Source: Escherichia coli O127:H6 str. E2348/69 (lineage in GTDB: Bacteria; Pseudomonadota; Gammaproteobacteria; Enterobacterales; Enterobacteriaceae). From it: a stretch of 64,000 bases of DNA. Each line of letters starts with the position of its first letter. The stretch's first letter is position 1. The DNA lies in NCBI RefSeq assembly GCF_000026545.1, contig NC_011601.1. The stretch is one strand, 5' to 3'. The position numbers were made by a program. Positions 3,001-6,000 of the stretch are shown here, piece by piece.

Positions 3001-6000
3001 CAACATATTAACGGCATAATATTGACTTTTTGAATAACTTTGGGGAAACTTGACACCAATAATGGGCGTTTTTTACATGTCATTGATGAGTCTCAATAAC
3101 CTGCCGCCGAGTAGTTTTTATGCTCTGAATTGTATTTGTGTAGTAAACATGCTGACTGCAATGTAATAGAGTTTTTTTAGCCTGTAACCTCTTGACGGCA
3201 TTGAATTGCTTTTGTTATGAGTTGTAAGCCAATGTTATCATCTTGTATTGGGGTGGTTATGAAGGATGGTGCACTGCTCAGGAGTTCTTCACTTTTTATT
3301 GCCTACATGGGATGCCTTGGATGGGGGAGTGCTTATTTCTATGGATGGGGTACTTCTTTTTACTACGGCTTCCCATGGTGGATTGTAGGTGCAGGTGTTG
3401 ATGATGTTGCCAGAAGTTTATTTTTTGCAGTTATCGTCATTGCTATATTTCTTATCGGTTGGGGTATTGGTGTTGTATTCTTTTTCGCAGTGAAAAGAAA
3501 ACATTCTATGCAAGAGCTAAATGTATTTCGCCTTTATTTTGCTGTGGAATTATTGTTTGTGCCGGCAATTATTGAGTTTTCTATATTGAGACAGAAGATT
3601 CAGGTACCTCTTTTGCTACTGTCAGCAGCGATTGCGCTGGCGGTTACAATTTCGATAAGATCTTATGGGCGATTTTTATCGGTATCATGCTTCTATGATA
3701 AGCCATTTATAAAAAAACATTTTTTTGAGATTGTGATGATTGCTTTTGTGGCATATTTCTGGCTTTTTTCATTTCTGACAGGATATTACAAACCGCAGTT
3801 TAAGAAAGAATATGAAATGATTAATTATAATGATGGTTGGTATTATGTTCTTGCTCGTTATGATAATTGTCTGGTTTTGTCTACTTCTTTCAATGCAGGT
3901 AGTAAAAGGTTTGTCATTTATCAATCAGCACAAGATAAGAATCTTCAGGTTGATATTGTAAGGACCAGAATTTAATTGGCTGCATAAATAATATTTTAAG
4001 TTGCAAGTTGGCTATTCGTAGGAATAGAACCTTAGGCATGCTGAATGCGTTTTCTGAACATTGTTTTATAAACTGTGTCTGCTTGCTGTTGTGATCCTGC
4101 TTTTAGTGATGGTGATGATGGATTTCACCAGCAGGATAATGTTGGTACTGACTGATGGCGCTCTGGTCTGCGGCATTGTGGTATTGCTGTGGCCGATGAT
4201 GAAAAAACAGAATGAATAATCCTTGACTTTTTTGTTTACTGTTTATTAAAAAATCAACCGCATGGTGAATCCTCCTTGGAGGGGCTAAATGATCGAGTTT
4301 TAAGGGCACGTAGCGAGTTCTGTTTGATCATTGCAGAACTTAGCGGGAGGCGCCATGCGTACATCACTAATGTTATTTCCTTCTATCATTTTCCTTGTGA
4401 GTTCTGGCTGCGCATGGCGCGGCCTTTTTTTTATGACCTGCCACTGGCAGATGGTCATCCTGTGATTTGATTCCGGTTCCGGCTTTTTAACTCTGTTCCT
4501 GTACACGGGAGAAATTCTATGTCGATTAATCGTTATGATATTGGTTACAAGAAGTACCACGTATTGTGTTGAGATAGAAAGCATGGTGCCAGAGGTAAAT
4601 GCAGCAGCATAATAAAAAAGAGCCAGCGCAGAAGAGAACGGGTAAAAGAGTCTGCGCTGGCGTGGGGATATTCCCCGTGGAGAAATGATATGTAACACAC
4701 ATCGGGAACCTTTCTATATAAACATTATCATTATTGTCAATCATAACAGTCAGGTATTATGACGTTTATGCATCAGGGCCATCAGGAATTAACTGGTGGC
4801 TTTTTATTGTTGTCAGCTTCCGGATAACGGGAGACGGGGTATGTACCAGATGGAAAAAATAACAACAGGTGTGTCATACACCACGTCAGCGGTGGGGACG
4901 GGATACTGGCTACTGCAGTTGCTGGACAAAGTCTCCCCATCCCAGTGGGTGGCAATAGGCGTATTGGGTAGCCTGGTGTTTGGCTTGCTGACGTATCTGA
5001 CAAACCTTTATTTCAAGATTAAAGAAGATAAGCGTAAGGCTGCGAGAGGTGAATAATGTCGCCATCATTACGCAAGGCTGTTGCTGCTGCTATTGGTGGT
5101 GGGGCTGTTGCCATAGCGTCTGTGCTCATCACTGGTCCGAGTGGTGACGATGGCCAGGAAGGTGTCAGCTACATACCATACGAAGATATCGTTGGCGTAT
5201 GGACTGTATGTCACGGACACACCGGAAAAGACATCATTCCCGGTAAAACGTATACCGAAGCAGAATGCAAAGCCCTCCTGAATAAAGACCTTGCCATGGT
5301 CGCCAGACAAATTAACCCGTACATCAAAGTCGATATACCGGAAACAACGCGCGGCGCTCTTTACTCGTTCGTTTACAACGTGGGCGCTGGTAATTTCAGA
5401 ACATCGACGCTTCTTCGCAAAATAAACCAGGGTGATATCAAAGGCGCATGTGACCAGCTACGTCGCTGGACATACGCTGGCGGTAAGCAATGGAAAGGGC
5501 TGATGACCCGTCGTGATATTGAGCGTGAAGTCTGTTTGTGGGGGCAGCAATGAGCAGGGTAACCGCGATTATCTCCGCTCTGGTTATTTGCATCATCCTC
5601 TGCCTGTCATGGGCTGTTAATCATTACCGTGATAACGCCATCGCCTACAAAGAGCAGCGTGATAAAAAAGTCAGTGAGCTGAAGCAGGCGACCGCCACCA
5701 TTACTGACATGCAGCAACGCCAGCGTGCTGCTGATGTACTCGATGCTAAATACACGAAGGAGTTAGCCAATGCGAAAGCTGAAAATGATGCTCTTCGGCG
5801 TAAGCTTGATAATGGTGGTCGGGTGCTCGTCAAAGGAAAATGCCCTGTGCCAGCCTCAGCCAAAACCTCCAGCTCCTCCGGCATGGGCAATGATGCCACC
5901 GTCGAACTCTCTTCAGTTGCTGGACGAAACGTTCTCGGTATCCGGGACGGAATTATCCGTGACCAAACAGCACTGAGAACGCTTCAGGAGTACATCAGGA

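What the first reader, a model, noticed from the sequence alone, without database searches (positions are those of the whole stretch)
4100..4470. Two small hydrophobic peptide ORFs downstream of the moron
Two sub-60-aa ORFs missed by the ORF track lie here. One (about 4109/4139..4219) encodes a single TM helix ending in a basic tail (...GALVCGIVVLLWPMMKKQNE), an architecture reminiscent of type I toxin or small membrane regulator peptides. The other (4353..4466, GGGAGG RBS) encodes MRTSLMLFPSIIFLVSSGCAWRG..., which has a signal-peptide and lipobox-like look and contains the T8-tailed hairpin at 4406..4432. Either could be a real small protein, or the hairpin may simply be a terminator.
Basis: inference. 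Interest (0 to 1): 0.35.

Follow-up and report, generated by a model that had tools for sequence, protein, structure and literature searches.

The report
Known sRNA PasD1 plus TciB-like peptide
One of the two "peptide ORFs" is an already annotated small phage membrane protein (DUF3927/TciB family). The other is not a gene but a chance reading frame through PasD1, a small regulatory RNA already validated in this same E. coli strain.

Summary
The window is prophage PP4 of EPEC E2348/69 (window coordinate = NC_011601 coordinate minus 1,056,000).

ORF1 is real. It is the RefSeq-annotated DUF3927/TciB-family protein at 4061..4219 (TTG start, 52 aa, two hydrophobic segments). It scores Pfam E = 1.4e-14, shows dN/dS of 0.1-0.3 and is homologous to phage P1 TciB. 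Its function is unknown, and nothing supports a type I toxin.

ORF2 (ATG 4355..4465) is not a gene. It lies inside PasD1 (4260..4432), a 173-nt Hfq-associated sRNA validated by Northern blot and RIL-seq in this strain. The published probe matches 4393..4416 exactly. The "GGGAGG RBS + ATG" belongs to the conserved structured 5' domain of the STnc100 RNA family. A 1-nt indel cuts the ORF to 14 aa in six of seven PasD alleles, while the hairpin is kept. The T8 hairpin is the PasD1 terminator, and the seed UGUGAG sits just upstream of it.

Side observations:
- An Esr41-like sRNA lies on the minus strand (4612..4701), hidden under a probably spurious CDS.
- A deleted esterase gene has left a remnant.

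Verdict: already known, low interest.

The parts
4061..4219 (+). ORF1: DUF3927/TciB-family small membrane protein, 52 aa, TTG start (RefSeq WP_000499456.1)
   Evidence: RefSeq annotation. Pfam PF13064, 54.2 bits, E = 1.4e-14. PHROG phrog_1470 'TciB-like'. dN/dS 0.10-0.28 for codons 18-46. The start position aligns with the ATG starts of P1 TciB and of N4-like phage TR2.
4223..4252 (+). Putative sigma-70 promoter of PasD1: -35 TTGACT at 4223-4228, 18-nt spacer, -10 TAAAAA at 4247-4252, 7 nt before the 5' end at G4260
   Evidence: Read from the sequence. A TTGAC-type -35 and a TAAAA/TAAAT-type -10 sit at the same distance from the RNA 5' end in most of the 52 distinct upstream sequences of STnc100-family copies. 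The consensus scanner did not list it because the hexamer lacks the final T.
4260..4432 (+). PasD1 sRNA, 173 nt, Hfq-associated
   Evidence: Pearl Mizrahi et al. 2021, Table S6: NC_011601 + strand 1060260-1060432, prophage PP4. The GFF offset was checked on four genes. The Northern probe is the exact reverse complement of 4393-4416. Rfam STnc100 match at 4230-4435: 37.7 bits, E = 3.8e-6, full model length, below the gathering score of 47.
4260..4358 (+). Structured 5' domain of PasD1, closed by helix P1 (GCAUGGUG 4260-4267 with CGCCAUGC 4351-4358).
   Evidence: MFE fold pairs GGGAGG with CCUCCU (4271-4276) and the AUG within P1. In 18 family members P1 and P3 show compensatory changes, and the AUG is replaced by ACG, ACA, GCA or GUA.
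4396..4401 (+). PasD1 seed UGUGAG, complementary to the CUCACA motif found in its RIL-seq targets
   Evidence: Fig. S5 and Table S7 of PMC8550237; sequence.
4406..4432 (+). Intrinsic terminator of PasD1 and its likely Hfq-binding 3' module: 8-bp stem (7 G-C pairs plus 1 G-U), 3-nt loop, U8
   Evidence: Terminator scan and fold. The published 3' end is 4432. The hairpin is kept in all but one PasD allele (six of seven, with G-U changed to A-U in the 434 type) and in phage Evi behind a different RNA body.
4355..4465 (+). ORF2 of the finding (36 aa): a chance reading frame, not a gene
   Evidence: Truncated to 14 aa by a 1-nt deletion (TTT at 4376-4378 becomes TT) in 5 of 7 PasD alleles, including the second copy in the same strain, and read in a different frame (40 aa) in a sixth. 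No family match. Exact sequence not in the 15-billion-protein collection.
4519..4612 (+). Remnant of a SASA-family (nanS-p-like) carbohydrate esterase gene. About 1754 bp are deleted relative to phage 434.
   Evidence: BLAST of window 4040-4840 against phage 434, phage 2B8 and the E2348/69 PP2 locus. The match is contiguous up to 4543, then resumes at 4544 near the esterase stop codon.
4612..4701 (-). Esr41-like sRNA, convergent with PasD1
   Evidence: Rfam Esr41 match: 32.3 bits, E = 0.001, full model length, below the gathering score of 102. RNA-seq and RIL-seq reads filed under the CDS name E2348C_1013 map to 1060613-1060672, minus strand. BaseMean is 2064, log2 fold change in delta-hfq is -2.9, and it is always the second RNA in chimeras.
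4300..4698 (-). RefSeq 'hypothetical protein' WP_012578864.1 (132 aa), probably a spurious call across the two sRNA genes
   Evidence: No Pfam hit above threshold and no PHROG hit. Marked as a frameshifted pseudogene in the PP2 copy and in L008. Full length only in loci identical to the window.

Best explanation
The interval holds two different, already described things.

1. ORF1 (4061..4219)
- It encodes a 52-aa member of the DUF3927/TciB family of small phage membrane proteins.
- It carries two hydrophobic segments separated by the conserved loop D-F-T-S-R, and ends in a basic tail.
- It is most likely an accessory inner-membrane protein of the late or 'moron' region. Its biochemical role is unknown (inference).
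- In other phages the gene abuts, and is probably translationally coupled to, a TerB-family gene (tciA). It may therefore normally act as the membrane partner of that protein (inference).
- In this prophage lineage it sits 88 nt behind a different membrane-protein moron. It has a TTG start and no Shine-Dalgarno sequence, so expression is probably low (inference).

2. The stretch read as ORF2
- This is the PasD1 sRNA gene (4260..4432).
- RNA polymerase starts at G4260 from a promoter that begins 4 nt after the ORF1 stop codon (promoter inferred; 5' end published).
- It transcribes a structured 5' domain of about 100 nt shared with the STnc100 family. An unstructured U-rich stretch follows, carrying the seed UGUGAG.
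- Transcription stops at the 4406-4432 hairpin and U8 tail. Hairpin and tail together form the usual Hfq-binding 3' end (3' end and Hfq association published).
- PasD1 then pairs through its seed with CUCACA-containing mRNAs on Hfq (shown by RIL-seq, not by me).
- During lytic growth, Q-modified polymerase is expected to read through this terminator into the lysis genes at 4841 onward. This follows from established knowledge of lambdoid Q antitermination and was not tested.
For: Identity of the locus:
- The window matches E2348/69 at 100%.
- The published GFF coordinates of Q, the moron, pasD1 and the holin all equal window coordinate + 1,056,000.

PasD1:
- Table S6 gives its coordinates, length and prophage. 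The probe is the exact reverse complement of 4393-4416.
- Northern validation and Hfq-linked chimeras are reported in the paper. PasD1 chimera coordinates 1060384-1060434 cover the seed and terminator.
- Rfam STnc100 matches over the full model. Zhu, Shabalina and Storz (2026) report a common origin of PasD and STnc100.
- P1 and P3 covary across 18 relatives, and the 'ATG' is not conserved.
- The predicted fold pairs both GGGAGG and AUG.
- A promoter sits at a fixed distance from the RNA 5' end in most of the family copies examined.

ORF2 decay:
- A 1-nt indel truncates or shifts it in 6 of 7 alleles.
- Phage Evi keeps the same hairpin behind a different RNA body and reading frame.

ORF1:
- RefSeq, Pfam and PHROG annotations agree.
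- dN/dS is 0.10-0.28.
- It aligns without indels to P1 TciB and TR2, with M1, K4, D21, F22 and P45 conserved.
- The exact protein occurs on hundreds of contigs.
- The GTG-start type abuts a TerB gene in 26 of 26 cases. The TTG-start type follows the phrog_1521 moron in 16 of 16 cases.
Against: - PasD1 scores below Rfam's gathering cut-off for STnc100 (37.7 versus 47 bits). It lacks 7 nt of the P4 hairpin.
- The -10 element TAAAAA lacks the conserved final T. The promoter was not picked up by the consensus scan.
- The 5' end comes from RNA-seq coverage, not from a primary-transcript assay.
- For ORF1, no translation evidence was found. There is no Shine-Dalgarno sequence before TTG 4061.
- Codons 2-17 give dN/dS above 1 against the GTG-start type.
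- AlphaFold2 gave one continuous helix (pLDDT 88) rather than a hairpin. The two-span topology therefore rests on hydropathy only.
- The PasD1 allele does carry a 36-aa ORF that passes a permissive lipobox pattern. Ribosome-footprint ratios for STnc100 copies in EHEC range from 0 to 3.2 and do not discriminate.
Confidence: 0.9

Rival explanations
1. PasD1 is a dual-function RNA. In the 173-nt allele carried here, the 36-aa ORF2 is translated into a small secreted peptide or lipoprotein, in addition to the base-pairing role.
For: GGGAGG lies 4 nt upstream of an ATG. The peptide has an N-terminal Arg, a hydrophobic stretch and ...VSSGC, which fits the permissive lipobox pattern. Dual-function sRNAs exist, for example SgrS/SgrT and RyhB/RyhP. 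Some STnc100 copies in EHEC carry ribosome footprints.
Against: The frame is cut to 14 aa, or shifted, in six of seven PasD alleles, including the second copy in the same strain. The ATG and GGGAGG are parts of conserved helices and are base-paired in the predicted fold. The ORF runs through the terminator, so the 173-nt RNA ends at codon 26 with no stop codon. There is no protein family match, and the sequence is absent from 15 billion predicted proteins. Footprint ratios of similar size are seen for classical non-coding sRNAs.
Confidence: 0.03
2. ORF1 is a type I toxin, or a toxin-like membrane peptide. Its antitoxin RNA is PasD1 or an unrecognised antisense transcript.
For: It is small and very hydrophobic with a basic tail, uses a weak non-ATG start, and has an abundant sRNA gene immediately downstream. 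Among STnc100-family copies, 59 of 135 have a DUF3927 gene directly upstream.
Against: PasD1 is co-directional and non-overlapping. Its single-stranded region pairs with the ORF1 mRNA or its start region no better than shuffled controls do (z = -1.2 and +1.2). No minus-strand promoter or terminator was predicted between 4000 and 4260. In P1, N4-like and many lambdoid phages the gene abuts, and is probably translationally coupled to, a TerB gene, and it occurs without any STnc100 RNA. Conversely, 76 of 135 STnc100 copies lack it. P1 tciB knock-down has no plaque phenotype.
Confidence: 0.06
3. ORF1 is a family member that is no longer expressed in this lineage. It would be an orphaned gene that lost its TerB partner and its ribosome-binding site when the moron replaced the upstream gene.
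For: TTG start with no Shine-Dalgarno sequence, 88 nt from the upstream gene. Codons 2-17 show dN/dS above 1 against the TerB-linked type. The original NC_011601 annotation did not call it.
Against: The frame is intact, with no indels, in 16 of 16 copies of this type and in hundreds of database contigs. The conserved positions K4, L7, L13 and L14 are retained in the divergent N-terminus. The loop and second segment are under purifying selection.
Confidence: 0.2
4. The hairpin is only the terminator of the moron/ORF1 transcript. No separate sRNA is made.
For: No other terminator is predicted between the moron (ending at 3975) and 4406. Read-through transcripts from the moron would therefore also end here.
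Against: A discrete RNA of about 173 nt with its 5' end at 4260 was seen by RNA-seq coverage and Northern blot. BaseMean is about 8650 for pasD1 against 147 for the moron. A promoter sits at a fixed distance from the RNA 5' end in most of the family copies examined.
Confidence: 0.02

Closest known systems
PasD1 (E2348CN_0004), pathogenicity-associated sRNA of EPEC E2348/69 (Pearl Mizrahi et al., Sci Adv 2021, PMC8550237). The paper lists EcOnc13 as its EHEC homologue.
   Same: This is the same locus: same strain, prophage PP4, strand, coordinates (4260-4432), length, probe sequence, seed and terminator.
   Different: Nothing differs. The finding simply read the RNA gene as a peptide ORF.
STnc100 (Rfam RF02076), a prophage sRNA family of Salmonella and E. 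coli
   Same: Same multi-stem 5' domain closed by the helix GCAUGGUG/CACCAUGC, and a promoter at the same fixed distance. The position is the same too, between the Q gene and the lysis genes, often directly after a DUF3927 gene. Zhu et al. (2026) infer common ancestry.
   Different: PasD1 scores below the gathering cut-off (37.7 versus 47 bits) and lacks 7 nt of hairpin P4. Its 3' seed region and terminator are different. Phage Evi has an intermediate form: a canonical STnc100 5' domain joined to a PasD-type terminator.
TciB of bacteriophage P1 (P1_gp075), Pfam DUF3927 and PHROG 1470
   Same: Same length class (52-55 aa) and two hydrophobic segments. Conserved positions M1, K4, D21-F22, L30 and P45, with 42% overall identity (53% over residues 21-52).
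   Different: P1 tciB starts with ATG and overlaps the stop codon of the TerB homologue tciA. Here the gene starts with TTG, lies 88 nt after an unrelated membrane-protein moron, and has no TerB gene upstream. The name 'tellurite/colicin resistance/inhibition of cell division' is by neighbourhood only. The P1 gene is non-essential.
Type I toxins (Hok, TisB, Ldr, Ibs, ShoB, ZorO)
   Same: Small hydrophobic membrane peptide encoded in a prophage next to an sRNA gene.
   Different: No antisense or complementary RNA was found. The operon-type linkage to TerB in relatives and the two hydrophobic segments also differ. There is no toxicity evidence.
Esr41 (Rfam RF02676), an iron-homeostasis and motility sRNA of EHEC. 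This applies to the neighbouring minus-strand element at 4612-4701.
   Same: Shared core AUUUCUCCACGGGGAAUAUCCCC and a 3' terminator. It is abundant and its level depends on Hfq. An iron-uptake mRNA leader (entC) is among its RIL-seq partners, in line with Esr41 targeting cirA, chuA and bfr.
   Different: It scores far below the gathering cut-off (32.3 versus 102 bits) and has a longer terminator hairpin. It sits in a lambdoid prophage rather than in the SpLE1 island.

Membership tests
PasD1 sRNA (identity with the published gene) | Coordinates NC_011601 + strand 1060260-1060432 in prophage PP4 of E2348/69 | tested here: met
   The window is 100% identical to E2348/69. An offset of 1,056,000 fits Q, the moron, pasD1 and the holin in the paper's GFF. 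PasD1 therefore equals window 4260-4432.
PasD1 sRNA (identity with the published gene) | Northern probe CATGCGCAGCCAGAACTCACAAGG is complementary with no mismatch (one mismatch would indicate PasD2) | tested here: met
   The reverse complement equals window 4393-4416 exactly.
PasD1 sRNA (identity with the published gene) | Seed UGUGAG upstream of a rho-independent terminator with a U-tract of at least 4 | tested here: met
   Seed at 4396-4401, hairpin at 4406-4424, U8 at 4425-4432.
PasD1 sRNA (identity with the published gene) | Expression as a discrete Hfq-associated RNA | not testable with these tools
   Taken from the literature: Northern blot and RIL-seq.
Rfam STnc100 (RF02076) | Score at or above the curated gathering threshold (47 bits) | tested here: not met
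   37.7 bits, E = 3.8e-6, model positions 1-206. Canonical copies score 120-149 bits.
Rfam STnc100 (RF02076) | Multi-stem 5' domain closed by a long-range helix, followed by a 3' terminator | tested here: inconclusive
   P1, P2 and P3 are present. P4 is shortened by a 7-nt deletion. P1 and P3 covary across relatives. PasD1 works like a family member and is probably a diverged one.
Pfam DUF3927 / PHROG 1470 (TciB-like) | Score above the Pfam gathering threshold (25 bits) | tested here: met
   54.2 bits, E = 1.4e-14, residues 7-50 on model positions 7-49 of 53. phrog_1470 E = 1.2e-17.
Pfam DUF3927 / PHROG 1470 (TciB-like) | Protein of 50-55 aa with the conserved positions M1, K4, D21, F22, L30 and P45 | tested here: met
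   Gap-free alignment with P1 TciB, TR2 and E. coli variants.
Pfam DUF3927 / PHROG 1470 (TciB-like) | Typical context: start codon overlapping the stop codon of a TerB-family gene (typical, not defining) | tested here: not met
   The window type lies 88 nt after a phrog_1521 membrane protein (16 of 16). Only the GTG-start type abuts TerB (26 of 26).
Type I toxin-antitoxin | Small hydrophobic membrane peptide | tested here: met
   52 aa with two hydrophobic stretches.
Type I toxin-antitoxin | Antisense or partly complementary RNA antitoxin acting on the toxin mRNA | tested here: not met
   PasD1 is co-directional and non-overlapping. Duplex energies are no better than shuffled controls. No minus-strand promoter or terminator was predicted at 4000-4260. 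An unannotated antisense RNA cannot be excluded without RNA data.
Type I toxin-antitoxin | Toxicity on overexpression | not testable with these tools
   Requires an experiment.
Bacterial lipoprotein (for ORF2) | Signal peptide with a lipobox cysteine | tested here: inconclusive
   R2, a hydrophobic stretch and V-S-S-G-C19 fit the permissive PROSITE-type pattern as I recall it. Position -3 is Ser, not the usual Leu (read from the sequence).
Bacterial lipoprotein (for ORF2) | Conserved open reading frame in homologous loci | tested here: not met
   Cut to 14 aa in 5 of 7 PasD alleles and shifted in another. Read in a different frame across the same hairpin in phage Evi.
Dual-function sRNA | Accessible ribosome-binding site and a stop codon within the transcript | tested here: not met
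   GGGAGG and AUG are paired in the MFE and centroid folds. The RNA ends at 4432, 33 nt before the stop codon at 4463-4465.
Intrinsic (rho-independent) terminator | G+C-rich hairpin followed directly by a U-run | tested here: met
   8 pairs (7 G-C), 3-nt loop, T8. The published RNA 3' end coincides with the end of the T-run.

The most novel reading that the evidence does not exclude
The DUF3927/TciB peptide gene and the STnc100/PasD-family sRNA gene may form a recurrent functional cassette in front of lambdoid lysis genes, not just syntenic neighbours. The peptide gene's stop codon lies 4 nt from the sRNA promoter. One version of this reading: read-through from the peptide gene yields longer PasD1-containing RNAs, or the sRNA insulates or tunes the peptide and the lysis genes. 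A more extreme version: the single-base insertion specific to the PasD1 allele has created a translated 36-aa lipoprotein-like peptide, which would be a newly born dual-function sRNA.
Probability: 0.05. Interest if true: 0.45.

Novelty: already known. Interest (0 to 1): 0.1.

Why it matters
The finding adds nothing new. PasD1 was described and validated in this strain in 2021, and its family relations were analysed in 2026. ORF1 is already annotated as DUF3927.

The practical value is cautionary:
- Structured sRNA genes can imitate an RBS, a start codon and a signal peptide.
- Gene callers have placed at least three different 'hypothetical proteins' over this sRNA pair, in RefSeq, in the phage 434 record and in EDL933.

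Two small useful by-products:
- The TciB-like family comes in two context types, a TerB-coupled GTG-start type and a moron-linked TTG-start type.
- RIL-seq reads assigned to the CDS E2348C_1013 appear to belong to an Esr41-like sRNA.

Tried and rejected
- Rfam at gathering threshold found nothing in the interval. The STnc100 and Esr41 matches appeared only at E-value threshold.
- Literature searches for 'TciB' were swamped by Trypanosoma cruzi 'TcIb' papers. 'DUF3927' occurs in only two papers, neither functional.
- PADLOC and NCBIfam gave no hit for ORF1 or the moron.
- AlphaFold2 on a 10-sequence alignment gave one continuous helix, H2-51, at pLDDT 88. This neither supports nor excludes a two-span hairpin. 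I did not run fold searches because a single helix gives meaningless matches.
- I tested for type I-like pairing between the PasD1 single-stranded region and five targets: the ORF1 mRNA, the ORF1 start region, and the start regions of the holin, moron and lysozyme genes. None was better than shuffles.
- I tried to fetch the old EDL933 record NC_002655.2, to identify which 'STnc100_n' of Neuhaus et al. is the PasD homologue. It is not in the collection, so those ribosome-coverage values remain unassigned.
- I considered the 62-64-aa TTG-start ORF (4276..4470), which the phage 434 record annotates as 'putative membrane protein'. I rejected it because its C-terminal half is in a different frame in the window and in phage 434.
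- I considered the 132-aa minus-strand RefSeq CDS and rejected it.
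Full report
**1. Where the window comes from**

Bases 3980-4840 are 100% identical to the chromosome of enteropathogenic E. coli O127:H6 strain E2348/69. RefSeq annotates the neighbourhood, in order along the + strand, as follows:
- antitermination protein Q (2356-2979)
- a 'DUF3927 family protein' (4061-4219, + strand)
- a 'hypothetical protein' on the minus strand (4300-4698)
- a class II holin (4841-5056), a lysozyme and a lysis protein

The gene table distributed with Pearl Mizrahi et al. 2021 gives the same genes at NC_011601 coordinates that all equal window coordinate + 1,056,000. 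The region is prophage PP4.

**2. Check of the observation**

Both ORFs and the hairpin exist.
- ORF1 is open from TTG 4061 to TAA 4217-4219, with in-frame ATGs at 4109, 4115, 4118 and 4139.
- ORF2 starts at ATG 4355 (not 4353) and ends at TGA 4463-4465. GGGAGG is at 4345-4350.
- The hairpin is GGCTGCGC-ATG-GCGCGGCC at 4406-4424, followed by T8 at 4425-4432.
- ORFs of this size are common by chance: 154 ORFs of at least 20 aa lie in the first 9 kb. Existence alone therefore means nothing.

**3. ORF1 is a DUF3927/TciB-family protein**

*Family match.* The 52-aa product matches Pfam DUF3927 (54.2 bits against a cut-off of 25, E = 1.4e-14). It also matches PHROG 1470, 'TciB-like'. tblastn finds the tciB gene of phage P1 and of P1-like, N4-like and lambdoid phages. 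Phage 434 carries the same gene, annotated 'TciB'.

*Start codon.* A gap-free alignment with P1 TciB and the N4-like phage TR2 protein, both of which start with ATG, puts the family's first residue at the window's TTG 4061. Positions M1, K4, D21, F22, L30 and P45 are conserved. It encodes two hydrophobic stretches separated by D-F-T-S-R.

*Selection.* Nei-Gojobori counts between four sequence types give dN/dS of 0.10-0.28 for codons 18-46. In the DFTSRI loop I count about four synonymous changes against one replacement. Codons 2-17 are constrained within the GTG-start type. They give dN/dS above 1 between that type and the window's TTG-start type. In-frame repeat expansions occur in E. albertii members.

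*Structure.* AlphaFold2 gave a single long helix at pLDDT 88. The hairpin topology is therefore only an inference from hydropathy.

**4. Context of ORF1**

I examined 45 DUF3927 copies.
- The GTG-start type is always preceded by a TerB-family gene whose stop codon overlaps the start codon (26 of 26).
- The TTG-start type found here always lies 88 nt after the phrog_1521 membrane protein (16 of 16).
- P1 and TR2 show the same tight tciA-tciB junction.

The 'tellurite/colicin/cell-division' name is by neighbourhood only. P1 tciB was scored non-essential in a CRISPRi screen. There was no hit in PADLOC or NCBIfam.

I read ORF1 as an accessory membrane protein that normally partners a TerB-like protein and is orphaned here. 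This reading is an inference, held with low confidence.

**5. ORF2 is the PasD1 sRNA**

*Rfam and the literature.* An E-value-threshold Rfam scan gave a full-length but sub-threshold match to STnc100 at 4230-4435 (37.7 bits, E = 3.8e-6). A literature search on STnc100 led to Zhu, Shabalina and Storz (bioRxiv 2026). They report that the EPEC sRNAs PasD1 and PasD2 share ancestry with STnc100.

*Published coordinates.* Table S6 of Pearl Mizrahi et al. (PMC8550237) lists PasD1 at NC_011601 + strand 1060260-1060432. It is 173 nt long, lies in PP4, and is 'antisense to most of E2348C_1013'. The probe is CATGCGCAGCCAGAACTCACAAGG.
- These coordinates are window 4260-4432.
- The probe is the exact reverse complement of 4393-4416.
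- The published 3' end is the last T of the T8 run.

*Published experiments.*
- The paper reports a Northern band of the expected size and Hfq-dependent stability.
- RIL-seq chimeras cover 1060384-1060434. They include 151 chimeras with aceE, and others with uspA, yhdW, bfpB and cesF.
- The seed UGUGAG (window 4396-4401) is complementary to a CUCACA motif in the targets.

**6. Why the region looked like a gene**

I collected 139 family copies from viral contigs using the pattern GGTGAATCCNCC...GGNGGGGC. All share a 5' domain of about 100-125 nt:
- helix P1 (GCAUGGUG ... CACCAUGC)
- hairpin P2 (CCCCC...GGGGG)
- a variable hairpin P3
- hairpin P4 (CCGGG-AGGCA-CCCGG)

Variable 3' tails and terminators follow this domain.

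The 'ATG' is part of the 3' strand of P1.
- In an 18-sequence alignment, P1 shows compensatory changes at four of its eight pairs and P3 at four of five.
- The AUG triplet is ACG, ACA, GCA or GUA in other members.
- PasD1 has lost 7 nt of P4.
- In its predicted fold (-56.9 kcal/mol, z = -2.1), GGGAGG pairs with CCUCCU at 4271-4276 and the AUG lies within P1.

**7. Test of ORF2 conservation**

- Seven distinct PasD alleles were recovered. Only the 173-nt allele of the window has the 36-aa frame.
- Five other alleles carry TT instead of TTT at 4376-4378, which ends the ORF after 14 codons. A sixth reads yet another frame. These alleles include phage 434, phage 2B8 and the second copy in E2348/69 itself.
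- The hairpin is retained in six of the seven alleles. The 434 type turns the G-U pair into A-U.
- Phage Evi has the same hairpin, and the same downstream DNA, behind a canonical STnc100 body (119.9 bits). The frame crossing the hairpin is different there.
- The 173-nt RNA ends 33 nt before ORF2's stop codon.
- The ORF2 protein is not in a collection of 15 billion predicted proteins. Other frames over the same DNA have been sporadically called 'hypothetical protein'.

ORF2 is therefore a chance frame. I put the dual-function reading at about 3%.

**8. Promoter and transcription unit**

TTGACT (4223-4228), an 18-nt spacer and TAAAAA (4247-4252) lie 7 nt before G4260. The -35 box starts 4 nt after the ORF1 stop codon. 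Most of the 52 distinct upstream sequences of family copies have a TTGAC-type -35 and a TAAAA/TAAAT-type -10 at the same distance, often preceded by TG. This supports an independent transcription unit.

No other + strand terminator is predicted between 3975 and 4406. Transcripts from the moron and ORF1 probably also end at the PasD1 terminator (inference). Read-through by Q-modified polymerase during lytic growth follows from general knowledge of lambdoid phages and was not tested.

**9. Is ORF1 linked to the sRNA?**

- A DUF3927 ORF ends 37-98 nt upstream of the conserved RNA motif in most of the 59 STnc100-family copies (of 135) that have one upstream. The other 76 copies lack one.
- P1 and TR2 have tciB without any STnc100.
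- The PasD1 single-stranded region pairs with the ORF1 mRNA no better than shuffled sequences do.

I take the association as shared residence in the Q-to-lysis interval, not as a toxin-antitoxin pair. I put the type I toxin reading at about 6%.

**10. Other things in the interval**

- *Esterase remnant.* Compared with phage 434, phage 2B8 and prophage PP2, the window lacks about 1754 bp of the SASA-family esterase gene. Only its first 25 nt and its 3' end remain, at 4519-4612.
- *Esr41-like RNA.* On the minus strand, 4612-4701 matches Rfam Esr41 (32.3 bits, E = 0.001).
- *Reads filed under a CDS name.* In the EPEC data sets, reads filed under the CDS name E2348C_1013 behave like an sRNA.
  - BaseMean is 2064 and log2 fold change in delta-hfq is -2.9.
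  - It is always the second partner in chimeras, at 1060613-1060672 on the minus strand.
  - Partners include the entC leader (263 chimeras) and the nlpD-rpoS intergenic region (537 chimeras).
  - Esr41 in EHEC controls iron-uptake genes.
- *Minus-strand CDS.* The 132-aa minus-strand CDS has no family match. It is a flagged pseudogene in related loci and is intact only in identical copies. It is probably spurious.

**11. Verdict**

- ORF1 is an annotated member of an uncharacterised small-protein family.
- ORF2 is a misreading of a published sRNA.
- The hairpin is that sRNA's terminator.

Interest is low.

Noticed in passing
window 4612-4701, minus strand: An Esr41-like sRNA lies convergent with PasD1. 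In the published EPEC RNA-seq and RIL-seq tables its reads are filed under the CDS name E2348C_1013. It is abundant (BaseMean 2064), drops 8-fold without Hfq, and is always the second RNA in chimeras. Partners include the entC leader and the nlpD-rpoS intergenic region. It was not listed among that paper's new sRNAs.
   Followed up: partly
window 4300-4698, minus strand: The RefSeq 'hypothetical protein' WP_012578864.1 (132 aa) spans both sRNA genes. It has no family match, is a flagged pseudogene in related loci, and is intact only in identical copies. It is probably a spurious gene call.
   Followed up: yes
window 4519-4612: Remnant of a SASA-family (nanS-p-like) sialate esterase gene. Only the first 25 nt and the last ~70 nt remain. 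About 1754 bp present in phage 434, phage 2B8 and prophage PP2 of the same strain are missing.
   Followed up: yes
loci L017, L008, L037 and others; P1 (L129 1516-2105); TR2 (L131 1490-2105): DUF3927/TciB genes come in two context types. The GTG-start type overlaps the stop codon of a TerB-family gene (26 of 26). The TTG-start type follows the phrog_1521 membrane protein by 88 nt (16 of 16). This suggests that TciB normally works with a TerB-like protein.
   Followed up: partly
L130 (phage Evi) 2139-2400; L006 2197-2449: The slot in front of the lysis genes holds interchangeable sRNA modules. Phage Evi combines a canonical STnc100 5' domain with the PasD-type terminator. L006 has STnc100 followed by a convergent AgvB. 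PP2 has PasD2 and PasA, and this window has PasD1 and an Esr41-like RNA.
   Followed up: partly
window 4775-4803, + strand: A second terminator-like hairpin (11 pairs, then TTATTGTTGT) lies 38 nt upstream of the holin start codon. The phage 434 record annotates a terminator at the corresponding place.
   Followed up: no
window 39167-39447 (minus strand) and 62613-62806 (minus strand): Three tandem naRNA4 (REP/BIME-type) repeats and a full-length Ysr251 match reach Rfam gathering scores. The window may therefore run out of the prophage into core chromosome.
   Followed up: no
upstream of many STnc100 copies (e.g. L039, L048: ...TCTCACAATTCAGGCGGTTGACTG...): A conserved block just upstream of the -35 box of many STnc100 genes contains CUCACA. 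This is the target motif reported for the PasD seed. It may be coincidence.
   Followed up: no
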